Of a stretch of DNA of 64,000 nt, positions 19,463 through 25,760 are shown piece by piece. The stretch's first letter is position 1, and every line of letters starts with the position of its first letter. The notes under the pieces were generated by a model. That model was given only the letters and a program-made list of their open reading frames with translations, made no database searches and was not told the origin of the DNA. The DNA is from Paramecium tetraurelia (lineage: Eukaryota), in the NCBI GenBank assembly GCA_000165425.1, contig CT867987.1:248001-312000 (forward strand), given 5' to 3'. A program made the translations under genes and the position numbers.

Positions 19463-19576
19463 TTATATTAATTTGACCCTTTTTAATTAAGTAAGTGTCT
19501 GATTCTTCTGAAATAATTATGGTAACTATCTCCGAGATAATTAATTTGAAAAACATTATTATTATATTTATTTAAA

Positions 19577-22500
19577 ATGTCGGAATCACTTGAAAGTACT
19601 TCATTAAATCGATATTAGAGTAATAATTCCAAGGTCCTTAGTCTCTTTTAATGTCAAATTGCGTAGGCTTTCAAGAAGGTGATTTTCTACAACCTCCAAG
19701 TTAAAATTCGTACTCTGTTCCTGTTGAACTTTCTCCTAATAATCCAATTAAAAATTAAATAAAAAAGACATTGATTACTGGAACTGGCAGGTAGAGCGTG
19801 TTTGAAGAAGAATCTTCAAATCATGGTAAACCTGAATTTTTAAGATTAATTATTGCAAAAAGCTTATAAAATAACTTTATTAATAATCTATGGAATAAGT
19901 CATACTTACGAAAATTACATTAATTGACGGAGTATCAAATAAAAACAATAGACGATTTAAGATTTAGCAGTTCCTCTGCTGAGTCAGCTTATGACAGCTT
20001 GGATGTATTTACACCTTATAGCAAATTCATATTCTTTTGGGATATTTCGTAGATAGTGTTATATTTATTTATATTTTTTTGGTTGCCTTTTAAATTATCA
20101 TTCGGAATGAATGAGATTTGTGAGTTTTGGAATGATAAAAATAAACACGATTTGGAAATCATCATCCTTAGCATCTTGTCATGCGATGTTTTGGTTGGAA
20201 TGAATATGGCCTTTATTCACAAAGGATAAATCATCAAAAATAGAAAGAGGATTTTATAAAATTATATTAGATAGTACGCATTTGTCGATTTAGTATTATT
20301 TTATTTATTATCTTGGTCTCATTAGCAGTATTGACCTTCCATTTCTTTCTTCATGACAATTCAAAATAAGCAACCACCCTGTTAATTATATTTGCAGTTG
20401 TATTTTACATCTTAAGACTCAACAAAATAGAAAAGATACTCGCCCTAATATAGGAGTAAATTTGATTATAAATTATTAGATTCTTCAATTTGAATGGTAA
20501 ATTAAATGATCTACTTGCATTAGTTTAGATGATTACAATCATTATTTATATAATCCACATTTGCGCATGTGTTTGGCATGGCATAGCTAATATTAATTGT
20601 CATCCCAATTGGATAGATTCCTATGAATTGAGAGATACTGATATTTATGTTAGGTACAATGTAGCTGTCTATTGGGCAACCATGACAATGACTACAGTAG
20701 GATATGGTGATGTTACTGCAAAAAACAACATTGAAACTGCTGTTAATAATGTCACTATGTTAATTGGTAGTATTGTTTTCGCATATTCAGTTAATAGTAT
20801 AGGAATATTTGTATCTAATCTATATAAGAGTAGATAAGAGTACAATCACACTGTAAACTTAATCAATACATTTATGTCTAAAAACAATATCTAATTTGAT
20901 CTTTAGACAAGAATTCGAAGTTATTTGCAATATATATGGCAAGAAGAGTAGTAGATGAACGAAGAACAAGTGGGTTCTATTGTTTAAAAGTTAAGTAGTC
21001 ATCTTCAAGATGAGCTAAATTTTCAATTAAAGGGCAACATATTAAATTAATGTAAAATAATAACCAAGACTTTTTCACTTAAATTCAAGCAACATCTCTT
21101 ATTGGTGATGGAAGAACAAAGCTTTTCTCCTGAAGAAAGAATAATAACGGTACAATAAAGAATACTATAATTTTAGTTGAATTAACAGGATGATAATTCT
21201 TTGTATATAATAACAAAAGGGGAAGTGGAGATAGTATTTGAAGGAACCAATCAAAATGGAGATGTGCTACAAAGAAACAGTTTGTAATGGTTGAAGGCAG
21301 GAGACTACTTCGGTGAGATATCATTCATAACAGGCAAATTGAGAAGTGCATCTGCAATTGCAAGAGGGTTTGTGAGAGTGTTTAAAATCAAAAGGGAATA
21401 GTTATTAAAGCTCTTAACCTTATTTCCTAATGAGTATGAGAAGTTTTGCTGTTTGAAAGACTAATTGATGATGAAATAAGCAGTAGCATCAGCCATATCA
21501 TGTTATAGTTGCAAGAGTGATTAGCATCTGATAAATGAGTGTCACTTCCATCATTATTGTGCAGACATGGAATCCCTGATAAAGAAGGAGTAATTCCCAG
21601 TTGAACAAAAGAGGAAATCTTATGATCGTAGAGGCTACACAAGCAAATTGCATCCTTGGTTAAACCAATATGTCCTTACTAACAAAGCCAAATAATATGC
21701 GTATACAAATACTATAACGGATAATGATTCTGAGGAAAACGATGATGAAGAAAATGGTATATACTAATCAAGTGAGGATGATGAAGAATAAGCCCAATTG
21801 AGAGATAACTCGTAGTCTATCAGTGCCACTCAACACTTAAATGACACTGAGGATGAGGATAATAATAGGATCCCAAAGTATAAGAGAAACATAGCAATAC
21901 CTCATGAGACCATCAAGACTGCTGGATTTGGATAGCACAAATAGGAGAGACAATAGCAACATGATTCTCCTTAAATTGAGGGTGTGATTGCAGAATCAAA
22001 GAAATTGATCAACACCTATTAAGTAAAGCCTCCTCAAGGGGATAATAGAACTAATCCTAAGACATCCAAGAAGAGAATTACATTAGTTAAGGAGGCGGCA
22101 CAAGAGGAGCGATAAGGGTCTGAGTAATTTTAGAAGACATGTATAGCAATAATGTGTGATATTTTGTTTAGTTCGTTAAGCTACAAAGAAGAGATCTAAA
22201 ACGGCTAGAGGAGTCAAAGATCACAGTTAATTTACTGATGGTTATTTGAACCAAGAAGGTTAGTTGGCAGCGTATTTTGATAAGATGTAGATATTTAGTT
22301 ACTATTTCCCTATCAATAATTACGATGTTATTCTGAAACGCTATGCCAGAATTTAGAAATAATTCGGCAAGAAAAGAGTATTCCCTGATTCTTCCATTTA
22401 TAGTTTTTTTATTTTGACAATAAAGAAAGGCTATAAATTGAGAAGACTTGGAGAGGAATTATAAAATCGTGCTGGACCCTAAAAGTTGCCAATAACATCA

Positions 22501-22578
22501 AAAAAGCCACATAGAAAATCGAAACCAACTTTATTGTTTGGAAAAGACTTTATAATGAATAATAATATAAATGTGTGA
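19577..22578 (+). CDS. Cyclic-nucleotide-binding-domain K+ channel (KCNH/CNG-like), paralog 1
   Basis: YWATMTMTTVGYGDV pore, C-linker, CNBD FGEISFITGKLRSASA; introns 19596-19618, 20293-20315 (non-canonical), then 24, 27 and 31 nt; TGA 22576-22578. Confidence 0.93.
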
Positions 22579-25500
22579 TTCTTCTGATAGTTTATTTAGG
22601 AATTATTTCTAAGAAGGAGAATTCCAAGGACCAAATCCTCAACTTCTAAGCAACAAGGTTGTTTTTTAATAAGGAGATATTCAAGGAGATAGCAGTAAAT
22701 CAATTACTGTACCTGAATAATTTGTGATTTAGTAATCACCTGTACGAACTCCGAGGAATATGGAAAGGACTAAAACAATGGGAGGTCGTAGATCAGAATA
22801 TTAATCTGCCTACGATCAGGAGGATGTAGAATCGATAAAAGACAGCAAACCGTAATTTCTAAGGTTAATAATTGCTAAAAGTTTGTAAAACAATTTCATT
22901 AATAATTTGTGGAATCGATCTTATTTGAGGAAATTGCATCAATTGACAAAGTATTAGATAGAATAATTGGATGATTTATAATTGGAATAGGAATCATTTT
23001 CTAGTGTGGGAAATCAAAATACTAAATCTTTTATTTAATCGTTGGCCTTTTGGAAATTTATTGATGTCTTCACTCCTTATAGTAAATTTATCGTGATTTG
23101 GGATGTGTTCTAAATTTTGACTTACATAATGATATTCTTTTGGCTACCTTATAAAATATCATTTTAAATATATTTCATTAGCGATTTATTCGAGATGGAG
23201 AACACCAAAATTATAGAGATGCTTCTCCTATCAATTTTGGCATTGGATGTTGTAGTTGGCCTCAATCTGGCATTCATTTACAAGGGCTAAATTATAAAAG
23301 ACAGGAAGAAAGTAATAATAAATTATTTCAATTAATACGCATTCGTTGATTTGGTATGAATTACATATAACTTATGGTTTCCTTATTCACAGTTTCTGCT
23401 TAATTTTTCATTCCGAATCTCGATAGTCAAGACAACACGACCTTAATCATCCAGATACTGTTATGTGCAATCTTTTACATTCTCAGGAGTACTAAAATTA
23501 ATAAGATTCTCGCTTAAATCTAAGAGTAAGTACATCATTAATAATTTAGATTCTTCAATCTGAATGGTTCATTGAATGACATGGTTGGATTGATGAAACT
23601 ATTGATGGTAATAATATTTATAGCACATATATGTGGTTGTACTTGGCATGGTTTGGCATATTATTCCACCAGCTATTCTTGGCTCGATGCCTATAATTTA
23701 AGAGAAAGATCTAATGGAACTAAATACAATTACTCAATTTATTGGGCAACTATGACTATGACCACAGTCGGATATGGTGACATTACTGCCTAAAATAATA
23801 GTGAACTATTGATAAACAATATTACTATGTTTGTTGCTAGTATTGTATTTGCATATTCAGTCAACAGTATTGGAATATTTGTATCAAATATGTACAAAGG
23901 TACTATGGAATACAGTAGATCAGTTACTTTGATAAATACTTTTATGTCTAAGAATAAAATTCAATTTGATCTATAGACTAGGATTAGAAGTTATCTGGAG
24001 TATATATGGTAAGAAGAGTAAGAAATGAATGATGATGAAATAGGATCAATAATGAAGAAATTAAGTAGACATTTATAAGATGAATTACAATATTAATTAA
24101 GAGGGAACATTCTCAAAAATAGTAGAGTCATCGTGAAATTATTCTCTGAACAATGTGTAAAAAGTTTATTATAATAAATGGAGGAAATCTCATTCTCTCC
24201 TGAAGAACGAATTATAACTTGCAATTAGATTGATGATTGTTCTCTTTACATCATTACCAAAGGAGAAGTGGAATTACTGTTTTCTGGTAAAAATCAATTG
24301 GGAGATCTGATCAAAAAGAATTCCATTAAATCTCTATCTTAACAGGAGTGCTTTGGTGAAGTAGCATTCTTTACAGGGAACCCAAGAACTGCTACTGCCA
24401 TCTCCAAGGGATTCACTAAGGCATTCAAAATCAAAAGAGAAAACTTCATAGCCATTTTACAGTCTTTTCCGAATGATTATGAGAAATTTTGTGATGTAAG
24501 AGATCGATTAATTTATAATGAATACTCTACGTTATAGCTAAATTGTTATAGTTGTAATAGCAATAAACATCTAATCAACACCTGCCATATCCTACATTAT
24601 TGTGCTGATCAAGAGAAAATACTTAAGAAAGAACTCTACCCTGTTGAATAATTAAGGAACACCAAGTTTTACAGATAAAAAAACAATAAGGAACCCTAAT
24701 CTCAATCCATGCAGAAATACCATTCAGCAAGAGCTCATGATTTGATGCAGGATCTCAATTAAGAAGAAAAAGGAGGAATGGATGTTGATGAAGCTGATTC
24801 ACACACTCTGCCTATCAATGATGCTTATGAAGATGAAGAAGGTATTTAGATATATTATAAACACAGATCAATATTCATCAATTAATTAATAGAGAAGTTA
24901 ATCGAGAACATTAAGTTAGAGATAAACATAATAATAAGAAATAGATGATGATGAGAAAAATATTAAGAGTCACTCTAGAAGACAAATTTCGTAAAGATAA
25001 ACTGTTGCAACTGCTGGATTTGGAGTTGATTCTTAAAAAAAGAGAGAAAGTATTGATCTACCCTTAAATAGTTACTTGGAATGTTGAGGAATTAAGTAAT
25101 TCTAAAGATTCATCTGAAGAACAGGATTAAGTAGTCCTCCCAAAGTAACATGTAATACAGTAGAAATCAAACGAAAACCTCTAAAAACCATCACTCAAAA
25201 GATAACTTTCAAGAACGGGATCAAATGATGAACATTCAAAACCAGTTGCCAAATAATCATCATAACAAAAACATCAGTCCGATCTCGAAATCAAGTTTTC
25301 ATCTTAGAGAGAACAAGCAAGAAAAATCACTAATAGAACTAGAACTCACAATGAAGAATAACCTACAATAATTGGTGAAAATGCAACTATGAATAATATT
25401 TATTTTCCTGCTCCCACATTGTCTTTGTTGGTTTCAAATTTTGATAAAATGTCCATATTTCAATATTATTAGCCTCTGAATAATTATGATGCTGTTCTTA

Positions 25501-25760
25501 AAAGGTATGTTTATTGAATTCTTAGGATTTGAATTAGATATGCTAGAGCGTAGAAGCACTTTGGAAAAAAAAGAATGTATCCTGAAACATCTCTATACTC
25601 ATTCTTTTTTATTGCCATCAAAAAAGGTTGGAAATTAAGGAAACTTGGCAATGTAGTTCCAAAAAACATTTCTAGTTTTCTTGCCAATACTAAGGTTTTA
25701 AAAAGAGCAGTCAAAAAATTCAAGAATGAAAAAAATAACATTTTAGTTTAAATTAAATGA
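22571..25760 (+). CDS. Cyclic-nucleotide-binding-domain K+ channel (KCNH/CNG-like), paralog 2
   Basis: YWATMTMTTVGYGDI pore, CNBD FGEVAFFTGNPRTATA; collinear with paralog 1 from MCDSSD.GEFQGP to IKKGWKLRKLG; TGA 25758-25760. Some C-terminal intron boundaries are uncertain. Confidence 0.93.

What the first reader, a model, noticed from the sequence alone, without database searches (positions are those of the whole stretch)
23354..23376. Non-canonical 23-nt GT-TG intron required in K+ channel paralog 2
Seen: after YAFVDL (S3) the sequence is GTATGAATTACATATAACTTATG|GTT TCC TTA. Unspliced, it hits TGA in the second codon. Removing exactly these 23 nt restores VSLFTVSA..ILRSTKI, collinear with paralog 1. 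No GT-AG intron of normal size fixes the frame: the next AG at 23392 gives 39 nt, which is out of frame, and sliding the boundaries never yields an AG end. Established: Paramecium introns are nearly all ~20-30 nt GT-AG. Inference: a conserved TG 3' splice site, probably chosen by intron-length measurement. It could act as an inefficient-splicing/NMD switch controlling channel expression. I cannot confirm whether this has already been described.
Basis: partly seen in the sequence, partly recalled or inferred. Interest (0 to 1): 0.85.

Follow-up and report, generated by a model that had tools for sequence, protein, structure and literature searches.

The report
Conserved GT-TG mini-intron candidate, Paramecium channels
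Two neighbouring Paramecium potassium-channel genes are each interrupted at the same codon by a 23-base intron-like insert that ends in TG instead of the usual AG; related species keep it, but the only readable RNA evidence shows it still in place.

Summary
The window is Paramecium tetraurelia. In paralog 2, YAFVDL ends at 23353. A 23-nt GTA..TG segment (23354-23376) follows, with TGA as its second codon, and only its removal restores the conserved frame (VSLFTV...).

Paralog 1 has the same feature at the same codon (20293-20315, also 23 nt, GTAT..TG). Synonymous sites between the two paralogs are saturated, yet the exons on both sides are under purifying selection. Only the ends of the segment are shared.

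Published gene models imply the same TG end in 9 more genes, giving 11 genes in 5 aurelia species. All of those models work around the site, in four different ways. Nine other paralog models read YAFVDL-VS(I/L)S without a break.

Splicing is not shown. In one RNA-derived contig set, five canonical GTA..AG introns nearby are removed, but the 23 nt are retained. Three raw RNA runs were too shallow (about 1x) to tell.

Best reading (about 0.5): an old spliceosomal intron with a non-canonical TG acceptor that is removed inefficiently. Rivals are recoding, a split or truncated gene, decay, and the annotators' alternative introns.

GT-TG introns are known in mammals. My searches found none described for Paramecium.

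The parts
23354..23376 (+). Paralog 2 segment: 23 nt, GTATGA..TTATG, GC 0.22. TGA at 23357-23359 in the unspliced frame. Candidate GT-TG intron.
   Evidence: retained in an X5 RNA contig
20293..20315 (+). Paralog 1 segment at the homologous codon: 23 nt, GTATTA..TCTTG, GC 0.13. The unspliced frame stops at 20332.
23336..23353 (+). Paralog 2 codons for YAFVDL (S3, first half), the last codons before the segment.
20275..20292 (+). Paralog 1 codons for YAFVDL. Together with the preceding Q codon they differ from paralog 2 only synonymously (4 synonymous, 0 non-synonymous changes in 7 codons), so they are coding.
   Evidence: sequence read directly
23377..23525 (+). Paralog 2 exon for S3 (second half) and S4: VSLFTVSAQFF..ILRSTKINKILAQIQ.
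20316..20455 (+). Paralog 1 exon for S3 (second half) and S4: VSLAVLTFHFF..ILRLNKIEKILALIQ.
22571..25760 (+). Paralog 2 gene. With the 23 nt and four canonical introns removed it gives a 1020-aa cNMP-binding K+ channel. It is annotated as two separate models (GSPATT00027702001 C-terminal part and GSPATT00027703001).
19577..22578 (+). Paralog 1 gene. With the 23 nt removed it gives 966 aa (counted with the 27-nt stretch at 21150-21176 left in).
23526..23549 (+). Canonical 24-nt intron GTAAGT..TTTAG, left out in an X5 contig.
24842..24866 (+). Canonical 25-nt intron GTATTT..CACAG, left out in an X5 contig.
25050..25071 (+). Canonical 22-nt intron GTATTG..AATAG, left out in an X5 contig.
25505..25537 (+). 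Canonical 33-nt intron GTATGT..ATTAG, left out in an X5 contig.
22141..22171 (+). Canonical 31-nt intron near the paralog 1 3' end, GTATAG..TTTAG. Left out in an X5 contig and in 3 raw reads.
20456..20479 (+). Paralog 1 canonical 24-nt intron, homologous to 23526-23549.
   Evidence: by homology and frame; no RNA evidence
19596..19618 (+). Paralog 1 canonical 23-nt intron GTACTT..ATTAG near the start codon.
   Evidence: by frame and model P0002
20274..20293 (+). The 20-nt GT-AG 'intron' used by the published paralog 1 model. GC is 0.40. It removes the conserved QYAFVDL codons and is judged wrong.

Best explanation
The 23-nt segments at 23354-23376 (paralog 2) and 20293-20315 (paralog 1) are one old spliceosomal-type intron. 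It is in phase 0, in the middle of helix S3, and predates the tandem duplication. Its 3' terminal dinucleotide is TG instead of AG.

Full-length channels (1020 and 966 aa) can only be made from transcripts in which exactly these 23 nt are removed.

Inferred mechanism:
- The U2-type spliceosome recognises the strong GTA donor.
- It takes the G at the usual short distance from the branch site as acceptor, even though U replaces A at position -2.
- This second step is slow, so most transcripts stay unspliced.
- Unspliced transcripts carry an early TGA, one codon into the segment in paralog 2 and 13 codons in for paralog 1.
- They would be unproductive and probably NMD targets, which would keep channel output low.

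Shown: the anatomy, the conservation, the selection on both flanks, and the retention of the segment in the major RNA form of one run.

Inferred: that splicing at TG occurs at all, and that it is spliceosomal.
For: 1. Intron-like anatomy. The length is 23 nt, the 5' end is GTAT as in 4 of 5 RNA-validated neighbouring introns, and GC is 0.13 and 0.22 against 0.20-0.32 for those introns.

2. Evolution like an intron between coding flanks. Paralog 1 versus paralog 2 gives pS 0.78-0.95 (saturated) and pN 0.30-0.35 in the upstream, middle and downstream exons. The segment is 11 of 23 identical, with the shared blocks at the ends (GTAT and the final G with the T before it) and only scattered matches inside.

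3. The flanking codons are translated. QYAFVDL shows 4 synonymous and 0 non-synonymous differences.

4. Removing 23 nt gives YAFVDL-VSL.., the arrangement seen uninterrupted in 9 of 24 family models (P0007-P0015). It also scores best against their HMM.

5. The TG end is kept in 11 genes of 5 species, 2 by DNA and 9 inferred. Five C-half models start MVSLFTV. Four read-through models have ..YLWS.. One model has ..QFM-VSFF.

6. No normal-size GT-AG solution exists in paralog 2.

7. The TG is confirmed by an independent run.

8. GT-TG U2-type introns exist elsewhere: ARS2 conserved between human and mouse, GNAS and TSPYL2 (passages read in PMC1557818 and PMC4176328).

9. A large Paramecium splicing study counted only GT/AG gaps, so such an intron would have been ignored (PMC5663052, 'Detection of splicing events').
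Against: - No spliced read or contig was seen.
- X5 contig record 2 runs from 22172 to 23525 without a gap, so the 23 nt are retained in the dominant assembled form. In the same contigs, 5 canonical introns are removed. Contigs drop minority forms, so this bounds splicing at less than about half in that sample. It does not bound it at zero.
- Raw RNA runs X19-X21 had a depth of about 0-2 at the site and are uninformative.
- In paralog 1, consensus-like TAG and CAG acceptors lie 10 and 13 nt downstream of the TG. They would give 33- and 36-nt introns that lead to a stop, and they should compete.
- A single T-to-A change would make a canonical AG, yet it has not been fixed in any of the 11 genes. 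This needs an explanation.
- No DNA from the 9 'clean' paralogs could be obtained to see whether they carry a GT-AG intron at this position.
Confidence: 0.5

Rival explanations
1. The gene really is split or truncated, as annotated. The unspliced mRNA is the mature form. Paralog 2 yields an N-terminal S1-S3a fragment ending at TGA 23357 and, separately, a C-terminal protein that starts at the ATG at 23374-23376 (MVSLFTV..).
For: - The X5 contig retains the segment.
- An ATG sits exactly at the end of the segment, in frame, in the paralog 2 lineage (5 models start MVSLFTV) and in the ohnolog lineage.
- Annotators in 5 species produced two models.
Against: - Paralog 1 has TTG, not ATG, at that place. 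Its next in-frame ATG lies in S5, yet its S3b-S4 exon is under purifying selection (pN 0.35, pS 0.95).
- The break falls in the middle of a transmembrane helix.
- Reinitiation after a 262-codon ORF is not expected in eukaryotes (general knowledge).
- The conserved GTA start and the 23-nt length of the segment would have no reason.
Confidence: 0.15
2. Translational recoding on the unspliced mRNA. One option is a -1 frameshift near GAT TTG GTA. The other is a 23-nt ribosomal hop of peptidyl-tRNA-Val from GTA (23354; 20293) to the next Val codon (GTT 23377; GTC 20316). The hop would give the same protein as splicing.
For: - The segment is retained in the major RNA form.
- The needed shift is 3n+2 in both paralogs.
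- The segment is flanked by GT(N) Val codons in both paralogs, and by a TGGT repeat in paralog 2.
- In paralog 2, a stop follows the would-be take-off codon.
- The -1 frame through the segment is open in both.
Against: - There is no X XXY YYZ heptamer in either paralog.
- There is no stable or shared RNA structure: z +1.39 and -0.50, and 190 and 58 of 200 shuffles fold at least as well.
- The 8 residues added by a -1 shift are not conserved (SIILFIIL versus GMNYIQLM) and lower the fit to the family by 13-14 bits.
- The stop after the take-off codon is absent in paralog 1 and in the ohnolog models.
- I know of no nuclear bypassing in any eukaryote (recalled, not searched).
Confidence: 0.1
3. 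The frame is restored by canonical GT-AG introns, as in some published models. These are the 20-nt intron at 20274-20293 in paralog 1 and the 101-nt intron at 23354-23454 in paralog 2. The proteins then simply lack parts of S3.
For: These are the only stop-free GT-AG solutions found. Model P0001 uses the 20-nt intron.
Against: - The 20-nt 'intron' contains the QYAFVDL codons, which are conserved with only synonymous changes, and has GC 0.40.
- It cannot exist in paralog 2, which has neither the GT nor the AG.
- The X5 contig shows no 101-nt gap.
- Scores drop by 22 bits (paralog 1) and 56 bits (paralog 2).
- 101 nt is far outside the lengths of the five RNA-validated introns here (22-33 nt).
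Confidence: 0.07
4. The genes are decaying or non-functional. The interruption is an old lesion, and the transcripts are noise.
For: The segment is retained in RNA. Expression is low, with raw depth of about 1. The family is very large: 298 K+ channel genes are reported (PMC2234077, passages read).
Against: - Both sides of the break keep open frames of 261 and 759 codons and show pN well below pS after saturating divergence.
- The same structure persists in 5 species with 86-100% identity in the S3b-S4 exon.
- A lesion would not keep the GTA..TG ends and the 23-nt length in paralogs this old.
Confidence: 0.08
5. The segment is removed at the DNA level (an IES-like element excised in part of the macronuclear copies), or by non-spliceosomal RNA processing of the IRE1 or tRNA-endonuclease type.
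For: The size of 23 nt resembles IRE1-type introns (recalled). Saudemont et al. warn that non-GT/AG gaps may reflect macronuclear heterogeneity (PMC5663052).
Against: No TA..TA pair gives the required product. No hairpins or shared structure surround the junctions. The junction sequences are AT-rich.
Confidence: 0.03

Closest known systems
Canonical tiny U2-type introns of Paramecium tetraurelia (GTA..TAG; an average of 25 nt is given in PMC8997360 and 'GTA..TAG' in PMC5663052, passages read)
   Same: Length of 23 nt, GTA(T) donor, low GC, rapid sequence turnover between paralogs, and a position between conserved codons. An in-frame TGA makes retention visible to NMD.
   Different: The terminal dinucleotide is TG, not AG. 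The segment is retained in the dominant RNA contig while five neighbouring canonical introns are removed.
Mammalian U2-type GT-TG introns (ARS2 conserved between human and mouse, PMC1557818; GNAS and TSPYL2, PMC4176328; passages read)
   Same: A good donor combined with a TG acceptor. The TG is conserved across species. In TSPYL2, use of the TG site gives a premature stop and varies by tissue.
   Different: The mammalian cases cited in PMC4176328 (GNAS, TSPYL2) are alternative acceptors. Here TG would be the only productive acceptor of a 23-nt intron, in a ciliate, kept in a gene subfamily through duplications.
Weakly spliced, NMD-visible introns of Paramecium (Saudemont et al. 2017, PMC5663052, passages read; Jaillon et al. 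2008, recalled and cited there)
   Same: Retention introduces a premature stop. A weak signal goes with lower intrinsic splicing efficiency.
   Different: Those data sets counted GT/AG gaps only. Nothing there covers a TG acceptor.
Programmed translational bypassing (phage T4 gene 60; mitochondrial 'byps' of Magnusiomyces). Recalled, not searched.
   Same: A short untranslated gap lies between matching codons (Val to Val). A stop follows the take-off codon in paralog 2.
   Different: There is no structure. The stop is not conserved. The gene is nuclear. The segment has intron-like ends.

Membership tests
Paramecium U2-type spliceosomal intron | Length in the narrow 20-35 nt class | tested here: met
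   23 nt in both paralogs. Validated neighbours are 22-33 nt.
Paramecium U2-type spliceosomal intron | 5' GT, preferably GTA | tested here: met
   GTAT in both paralogs. Val (GTN) follows DL in the read-through and truncated models.
Paramecium U2-type spliceosomal intron | 3' AG, preferably TAG | tested here: not met
   ATG in paralog 2 and TTG in paralog 1. TG is inferred in 9 further genes.
Paramecium U2-type spliceosomal intron | Absent from mature mRNA | tested here: not met
   Retained in X5 contig record 2 (22172-23525, 0 gaps), while 5 canonical introns are left out. Minority forms and other samples were not testable, and the raw runs had depth of about 1.
Paramecium U2-type spliceosomal intron | Removal restores the conserved reading frame and protein | tested here: met
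   open reading frames of 1020 and 966 aa, and the best HMM scores.
Paramecium U2-type spliceosomal intron | Lower GC than the exons, and no amino-acid conservation | tested here: met
   GC is 0.13 and 0.22, against 0.35 in the downstream exon. The interior is not conserved.
U2-type GT-TG non-canonical introns (as defined in PMC1557818: good 5'ss, non-canonical 3' terminus, conserved between species) | TG terminus conserved between species or paralogs | tested here: met
   11 genes in 5 species; 2 by DNA and 9 by inference from ATG or TGG codons.
U2-type GT-TG non-canonical introns | cDNA evidence for the GT-TG junction | tested here: inconclusive
   No junction was seen. Coverage was too thin in the raw reads, and contigs keep only major forms.
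-1 programmed ribosomal frameshift site | Slippery heptamer X XXY YYZ plus a downstream structure | tested here: not met
   No heptamer. Fold z-scores are +1.39 and -0.50.
Translational bypass element | Matching take-off and landing codons, a stop after take-off, and a stimulatory structure | tested here: inconclusive
   Val codons GTA to GTT or GTC match in 2 of 3 letters in both paralogs. The stop is present only in paralog 2. There is no structure.
Paramecium IES (PiggyMac-excised) | TA at both ends, with one TA left after excision | tested here: not met
   No TA pair gives the conserved product. The window is macronuclear according to the record names.
IRE1-type or tRNA-endonuclease-type intron | Cleavage sites in paired stem-loops or a bulge-helix-bulge | tested here: not met
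   No significant or shared structure. The loop consensus is recalled, not taken from a tool.
Cyclic-nucleotide-binding 6-TM K+ channel (host gene) | Ion_trans / Ion_trans_2 pore with GYGD, plus a cNMP_binding domain | tested here: met
   PF00520, PF07885 and PF00027 are above their cut-offs in paralog 2. In paralog 1, PF00520 scores 24.8 against a cut-off of 25, and the other two are above their cut-offs.

The most novel reading that the evidence does not exclude
The 23 nt are never spliced. Ribosomes translating the unspliced nuclear mRNA hop from the Val codon GTA that opens the segment to the Val codon (GTT or GTC) just behind it. This would be the first programmed translational bypass in a nuclear eukaryotic gene, conserved in a ciliate K+ channel subfamily.

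A less radical novel reading has probability about 0.25. In it, TG-terminated introns are a selected, deliberately weak class that throttles channel dosage through NMD.
Probability: 0.05. Interest if true: 0.9.

Novelty: new variant of a known kind. Interest (0 to 1): 0.55.

Why it matters
If the TG acceptor is used, Paramecium's minimal introns can complete the second splicing step without the AG. The feature has been stable through gene and genome duplications in at least five species.

That would bear on how 3' sites are chosen in roughly 25-nt introns, whether by distance from the branch point or by dinucleotide identity. It would also give a natural substrate for studying AG-independent exon ligation.

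There is a practical consequence. Every public model of these genes is wrong at this site:
- chimeric paralog 1 + half-paralog 2 models;
- models starting at MVSLFTV;
- frame-shifted read-through models.

Pipelines and splicing surveys that accept only GT/AG will miss such introns systematically (PMC5663052 counted only GT/AG gaps).

If the segment is instead not spliced, the conserved downstream frame demands recoding or a split channel. Either would be more unusual.

Tried and rejected
- Whole genome: none is held for this window, so no genome-wide scan for GTA..TG gaps was possible.
- RNA holders: no RNA holder is listed in the run index. Three raw oligo-dT RNA runs of the same species label were laid, but depth at both sites was about 0-2 reads. 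No statement on the junction is possible from them.
- DNA of relatives:
  - Metagenome contigs gave 4 loci out of 214 pattern matches. The best (L001, 41% identity) starts after S3 and is from another ciliate-like organism.
  - Genome contigs gave 0 of 76 by protein. A degenerate junction pattern gave 4 matches, all in bacterial or archaeal records.
  - Viral contigs gave 0 of 23.
- Earlier scan notes: nothing relevant.
- Haynes et al. 2003 ('PAK paradox') is not held. It may say something about introns of these genes that I could not see.
- IES excision, the IRE1 or BHB type, and the classical -1 frameshift were rejected on sequence grounds.
- The 39-nt (paralog 2) and 33/36-nt (paralog 1) GT-AG introns are 3n and lead to stops.
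- Supplementary files of the Paramecium splicing papers were not opened. They might list non-GT/AG gaps.
Full report
**What is in the sequence**

The window is AT-rich (GC 0.21-0.36) and reads as ciliate nuclear DNA, with TAA and TAG as Gln. It is identical to Paramecium tetraurelia macronuclear gene models (P0001, 100% identity; GSPATT00027702001 and GSPATT00027703001).

Two tandem paralogous genes lie on the + strand. Paralog 1 is at 19577-22578 and paralog 2 at 22571-25760. Both encode 6-TM K+ channels with a GYGD pore and a cyclic-nucleotide-binding domain (Pfam PF00520, PF07885, PF00027).

In paralog 2, the codons for YAFVDL end at 23353. They are followed by GTATGAATTACATATAACTTATG (23354-23376). 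The unspliced frame reads GTA TGA. The frame that encodes the rest of the channel (VSLFTVSAQFF..ILRSTKINKIL, S3b-S4) starts at 23377.

**Paralog 1 has the same feature**

After its own YAFVDL (ending at 20292), paralog 1 carries GTATTATTTTATTTATTATCTTG (20293-20315). This is again 23 nt and GT..TG, followed by GTC TCA TTA (VSL..).

The placement can slide by up to 2 nt, because GT in paralog 1 and TGGT in paralog 2 are repeated at both ends. GT..TG is the only placement with an intron-like donor that both share.

**Can a canonical intron do the job?**

I enumerated all GT..AG pairs of 15-120 nt around both sites.

- Paralog 2: the only stop-free solutions are 101 and 110 nt and delete at least 26 conserved residues. 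The first AG after the segment gives 39 nt (3n), which keeps the wrong frame and ends in a stop.
- Paralog 1: the AGs after the segment give 33 and 36 nt (3n) and a stop within two codons. The only stop-free solution is a 20-nt GT-AG at 20274-20293, which the published model P0001 uses. That stretch contains the QYAFVDL codons. They differ from paralog 2 by 4 synonymous and 0 non-synonymous changes. Its GC is 0.40, and paralog 2 has neither its GT nor its AG. It is coding sequence, not an intron.

**Age and selection**

Between paralog 1 and paralog 2, synonymous sites are saturated (pS 0.82, 0.95 and 0.78). Non-synonymous differences are 0.32, 0.35 and 0.30 in the exons before, just after and far after the segment (223, 46 and 429 aligned codons).

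Both sides of the break have therefore been translated, in their respective frames, for a long time. Within the segment, 11 of 23 positions agree, which is about what two AT-rich sequences give by chance. The only shared blocks are GTAT at the start and TG at the end.

**Other genes and species**

From 24 full or half gene models of this subfamily (29 proteins fetched, 5 of them short fragments), four kinds of work-around appear, plus a clean group:

- 3 models end ..YAFVDLV at the stop (tetraurelia, primaurelia, octaurelia).
- 5 models start MVSLFTV.. (tetraurelia, octaurelia, primaurelia, pentaurelia, sonneborni). Their start ATG is therefore the last three bases of the segment.
- 4 models of the paralog 2 ohnolog read straight through as ..DLVNI(T/K/I)FYLWS.. 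(primaurelia, tetraurelia, sonneborni, pentaurelia). The Trp codon TGG spans the junction, and seven codons plus two bases again make 23 nt.
- 1 sonneborni model reads the segment in the -1 frame (..QFM-VSFF..).
- 2 models have gaps at the site.
- 9 models (P0007-P0015, five species) read QYAFVDL-VS(I/L)STVT.. without interruption.

Because Met and Trp have single codons, TG at the end of the segment is implied in 9 genes besides the 2 read directly. That makes 11 genes in 5 species. All published models avoid the site in one of four ways, and none uses a 23-nt removal.

Against an HMM built from the 9 uninterrupted paralogs, the 23-nt-removed products score best:

| Product | Paralog 2 (bits) | Paralog 1 (bits) |
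|---|---|---|
| 23 nt removed | 1150.2 | 932.8 |
| -1 frame reading | 1135.9 | 919.5 |
| GT-AG alternative (101 nt / 20 nt) | 1093.8 | 911.0 |

With the 23 nt and the canonical introns removed, paralog 2 is an open 1020-codon gene and paralog 1 an open 966-codon gene.

**RNA evidence**

No run in the index is on record as an RNA holder. I laid three raw oligo-dT RNA runs of the same species label, plus one contig set (X5), on 19500-25600.

The raw runs gave only about 0-2 reads at either site and say nothing about the junction.

X5 is RNA-derived. Its contigs lack the canonical introns 22141-22171, 23526-23549, 24842-24866, 25050-25071 and 25505-25537, all GTA..AG. Its record 2 runs from 22172 to 23525 without any gap, so the 23-nt segment is present in the dominant assembled transcript form.

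Contigs keep the major path only. A spliced minority of up to roughly half is not excluded, but efficient splicing in that sample is.

The same contig confirms the TG letters independently of the assembly. Its only differences from the window are at 22616 and 24154.

**Rivals tested on sequence**

- There is no X XXY YYZ slippery heptamer in either paralog.
- There is no significant or shared RNA structure around either site: z +1.39 and -0.50, and 190 and 58 of 200 shuffles fold at least as well. This speaks against classical frameshift stimulators and against IRE1- or tRNA-endonuclease-type processing.
- No TA..TA pair can give the conserved product, so a PiggyMac-type IES is excluded.
- A Val-to-Val ribosomal hop (GTA to GTT or GTC, 23 nt) would give the same protein as splicing and is not excluded. 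But the stop after the take-off codon is present only in paralog 2, and no structure is present.
- The split-gene reading has an ATG at the segment's end in paralog 2 and its ohnolog in its favour. It fails for paralog 1, which has TTG there and no ATG before S5, while its S3b-S4 exon is under selection.

**Literature**

Four full-text searches and passages read in five papers with Paramecium or ciliate splicing data (PMC12862383, PMC8997360, PMC5663052, PMC13685798, PMC9612004) found no description of a GT-TG or other non-GT/AG intron in Paramecium.

PMC5663052 states that more than 97% of TopHat gaps matched GT/AG and that only those were counted as splice variants. It attributes the remainder possibly to macronuclear heterogeneity. 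Such an intron would therefore have been filtered out.

GT-TG U2-type introns are documented in mammals: ARS2 conserved between human and mouse (PMC1557818), and GNAS and TSPYL2 (PMC4176328).

The Haynes et al. 2003 paper on these channel genes was not available. No supplements were opened.

**Verdict**

The feature is real, old and conserved. It behaves in evolution like an intron whose acceptor is TG. Whether and how the 23 nt are removed from the message is not shown, and the one informative RNA data set shows them retained.

I put about 0.5 on a genuine, inefficiently used GT-TG spliceosomal intron. The remainder is spread over a split or truncated gene (0.15), translational recoding (0.10), decay (0.08), the annotators' canonical alternatives (0.07) and DNA-level or other RNA processing (0.03).

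As a kind, it is a new variant of a known phenomenon (non-canonical TG acceptors), in an organism and intron-size class where it has not been reported in the sources I could search.

Noticed in passing
22571-22578: The paralog 1 stop codon (TGA 22576-22578) lies behind the paralog 2 start codon (ATG 22571-22573), in the stretch AATGTGTGA. The tandem genes therefore have no intergenic spacer. An RNA contig (X5 record 2) runs across the boundary from 21526 to 23525. The paralog 2 promoter would have to lie inside paralog 1, or the two genes are co-transcribed.
   Followed up: partly
22575-22599: Published models in tetraurelia, primaurelia and octaurelia fuse paralog 1 to paralog 2 through a 25-nt GTG..TAG 'intron' that removes the paralog 1 stop. 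A sonneborni model also fuses the two genes. The X5 contig does not show this stretch removed. A review mentions unpublished 12-TM two-pore K+ channels in Paramecium (PMC2234077), so a fused isoform is worth checking.
   Followed up: partly
25050-25071: The annotated C-half model P0021 differs from the product implied by the RNA-supported intron at residues 533-541 (9 residues). The published model probably uses a different splice choice here.
   Followed up: no
21150-21176: Paralog 1 contains a 27-nt GTA..TAG stretch that the published model removes (IIT-LNQQDD). It is 3n long and has no TGA in frame, so retention would be invisible to NMD. No RNA covered it.
   Followed up: no
22616 and 24154: Run X5 reads T for G at 22616. 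Runs X5 and X20 (4 of 4 reads) read C for T at 24154. These are either strain differences or errors in the reference.
   Followed up: no
L001:73-1673: A 2.1-kb freshwater-type metagenome contig encodes a K+ channel of the same family (41% identity, TAA and TAG read as Gln) from another ciliate-like organism. The contig starts after S3, so the intron site could not be seen.
   Followed up: partly
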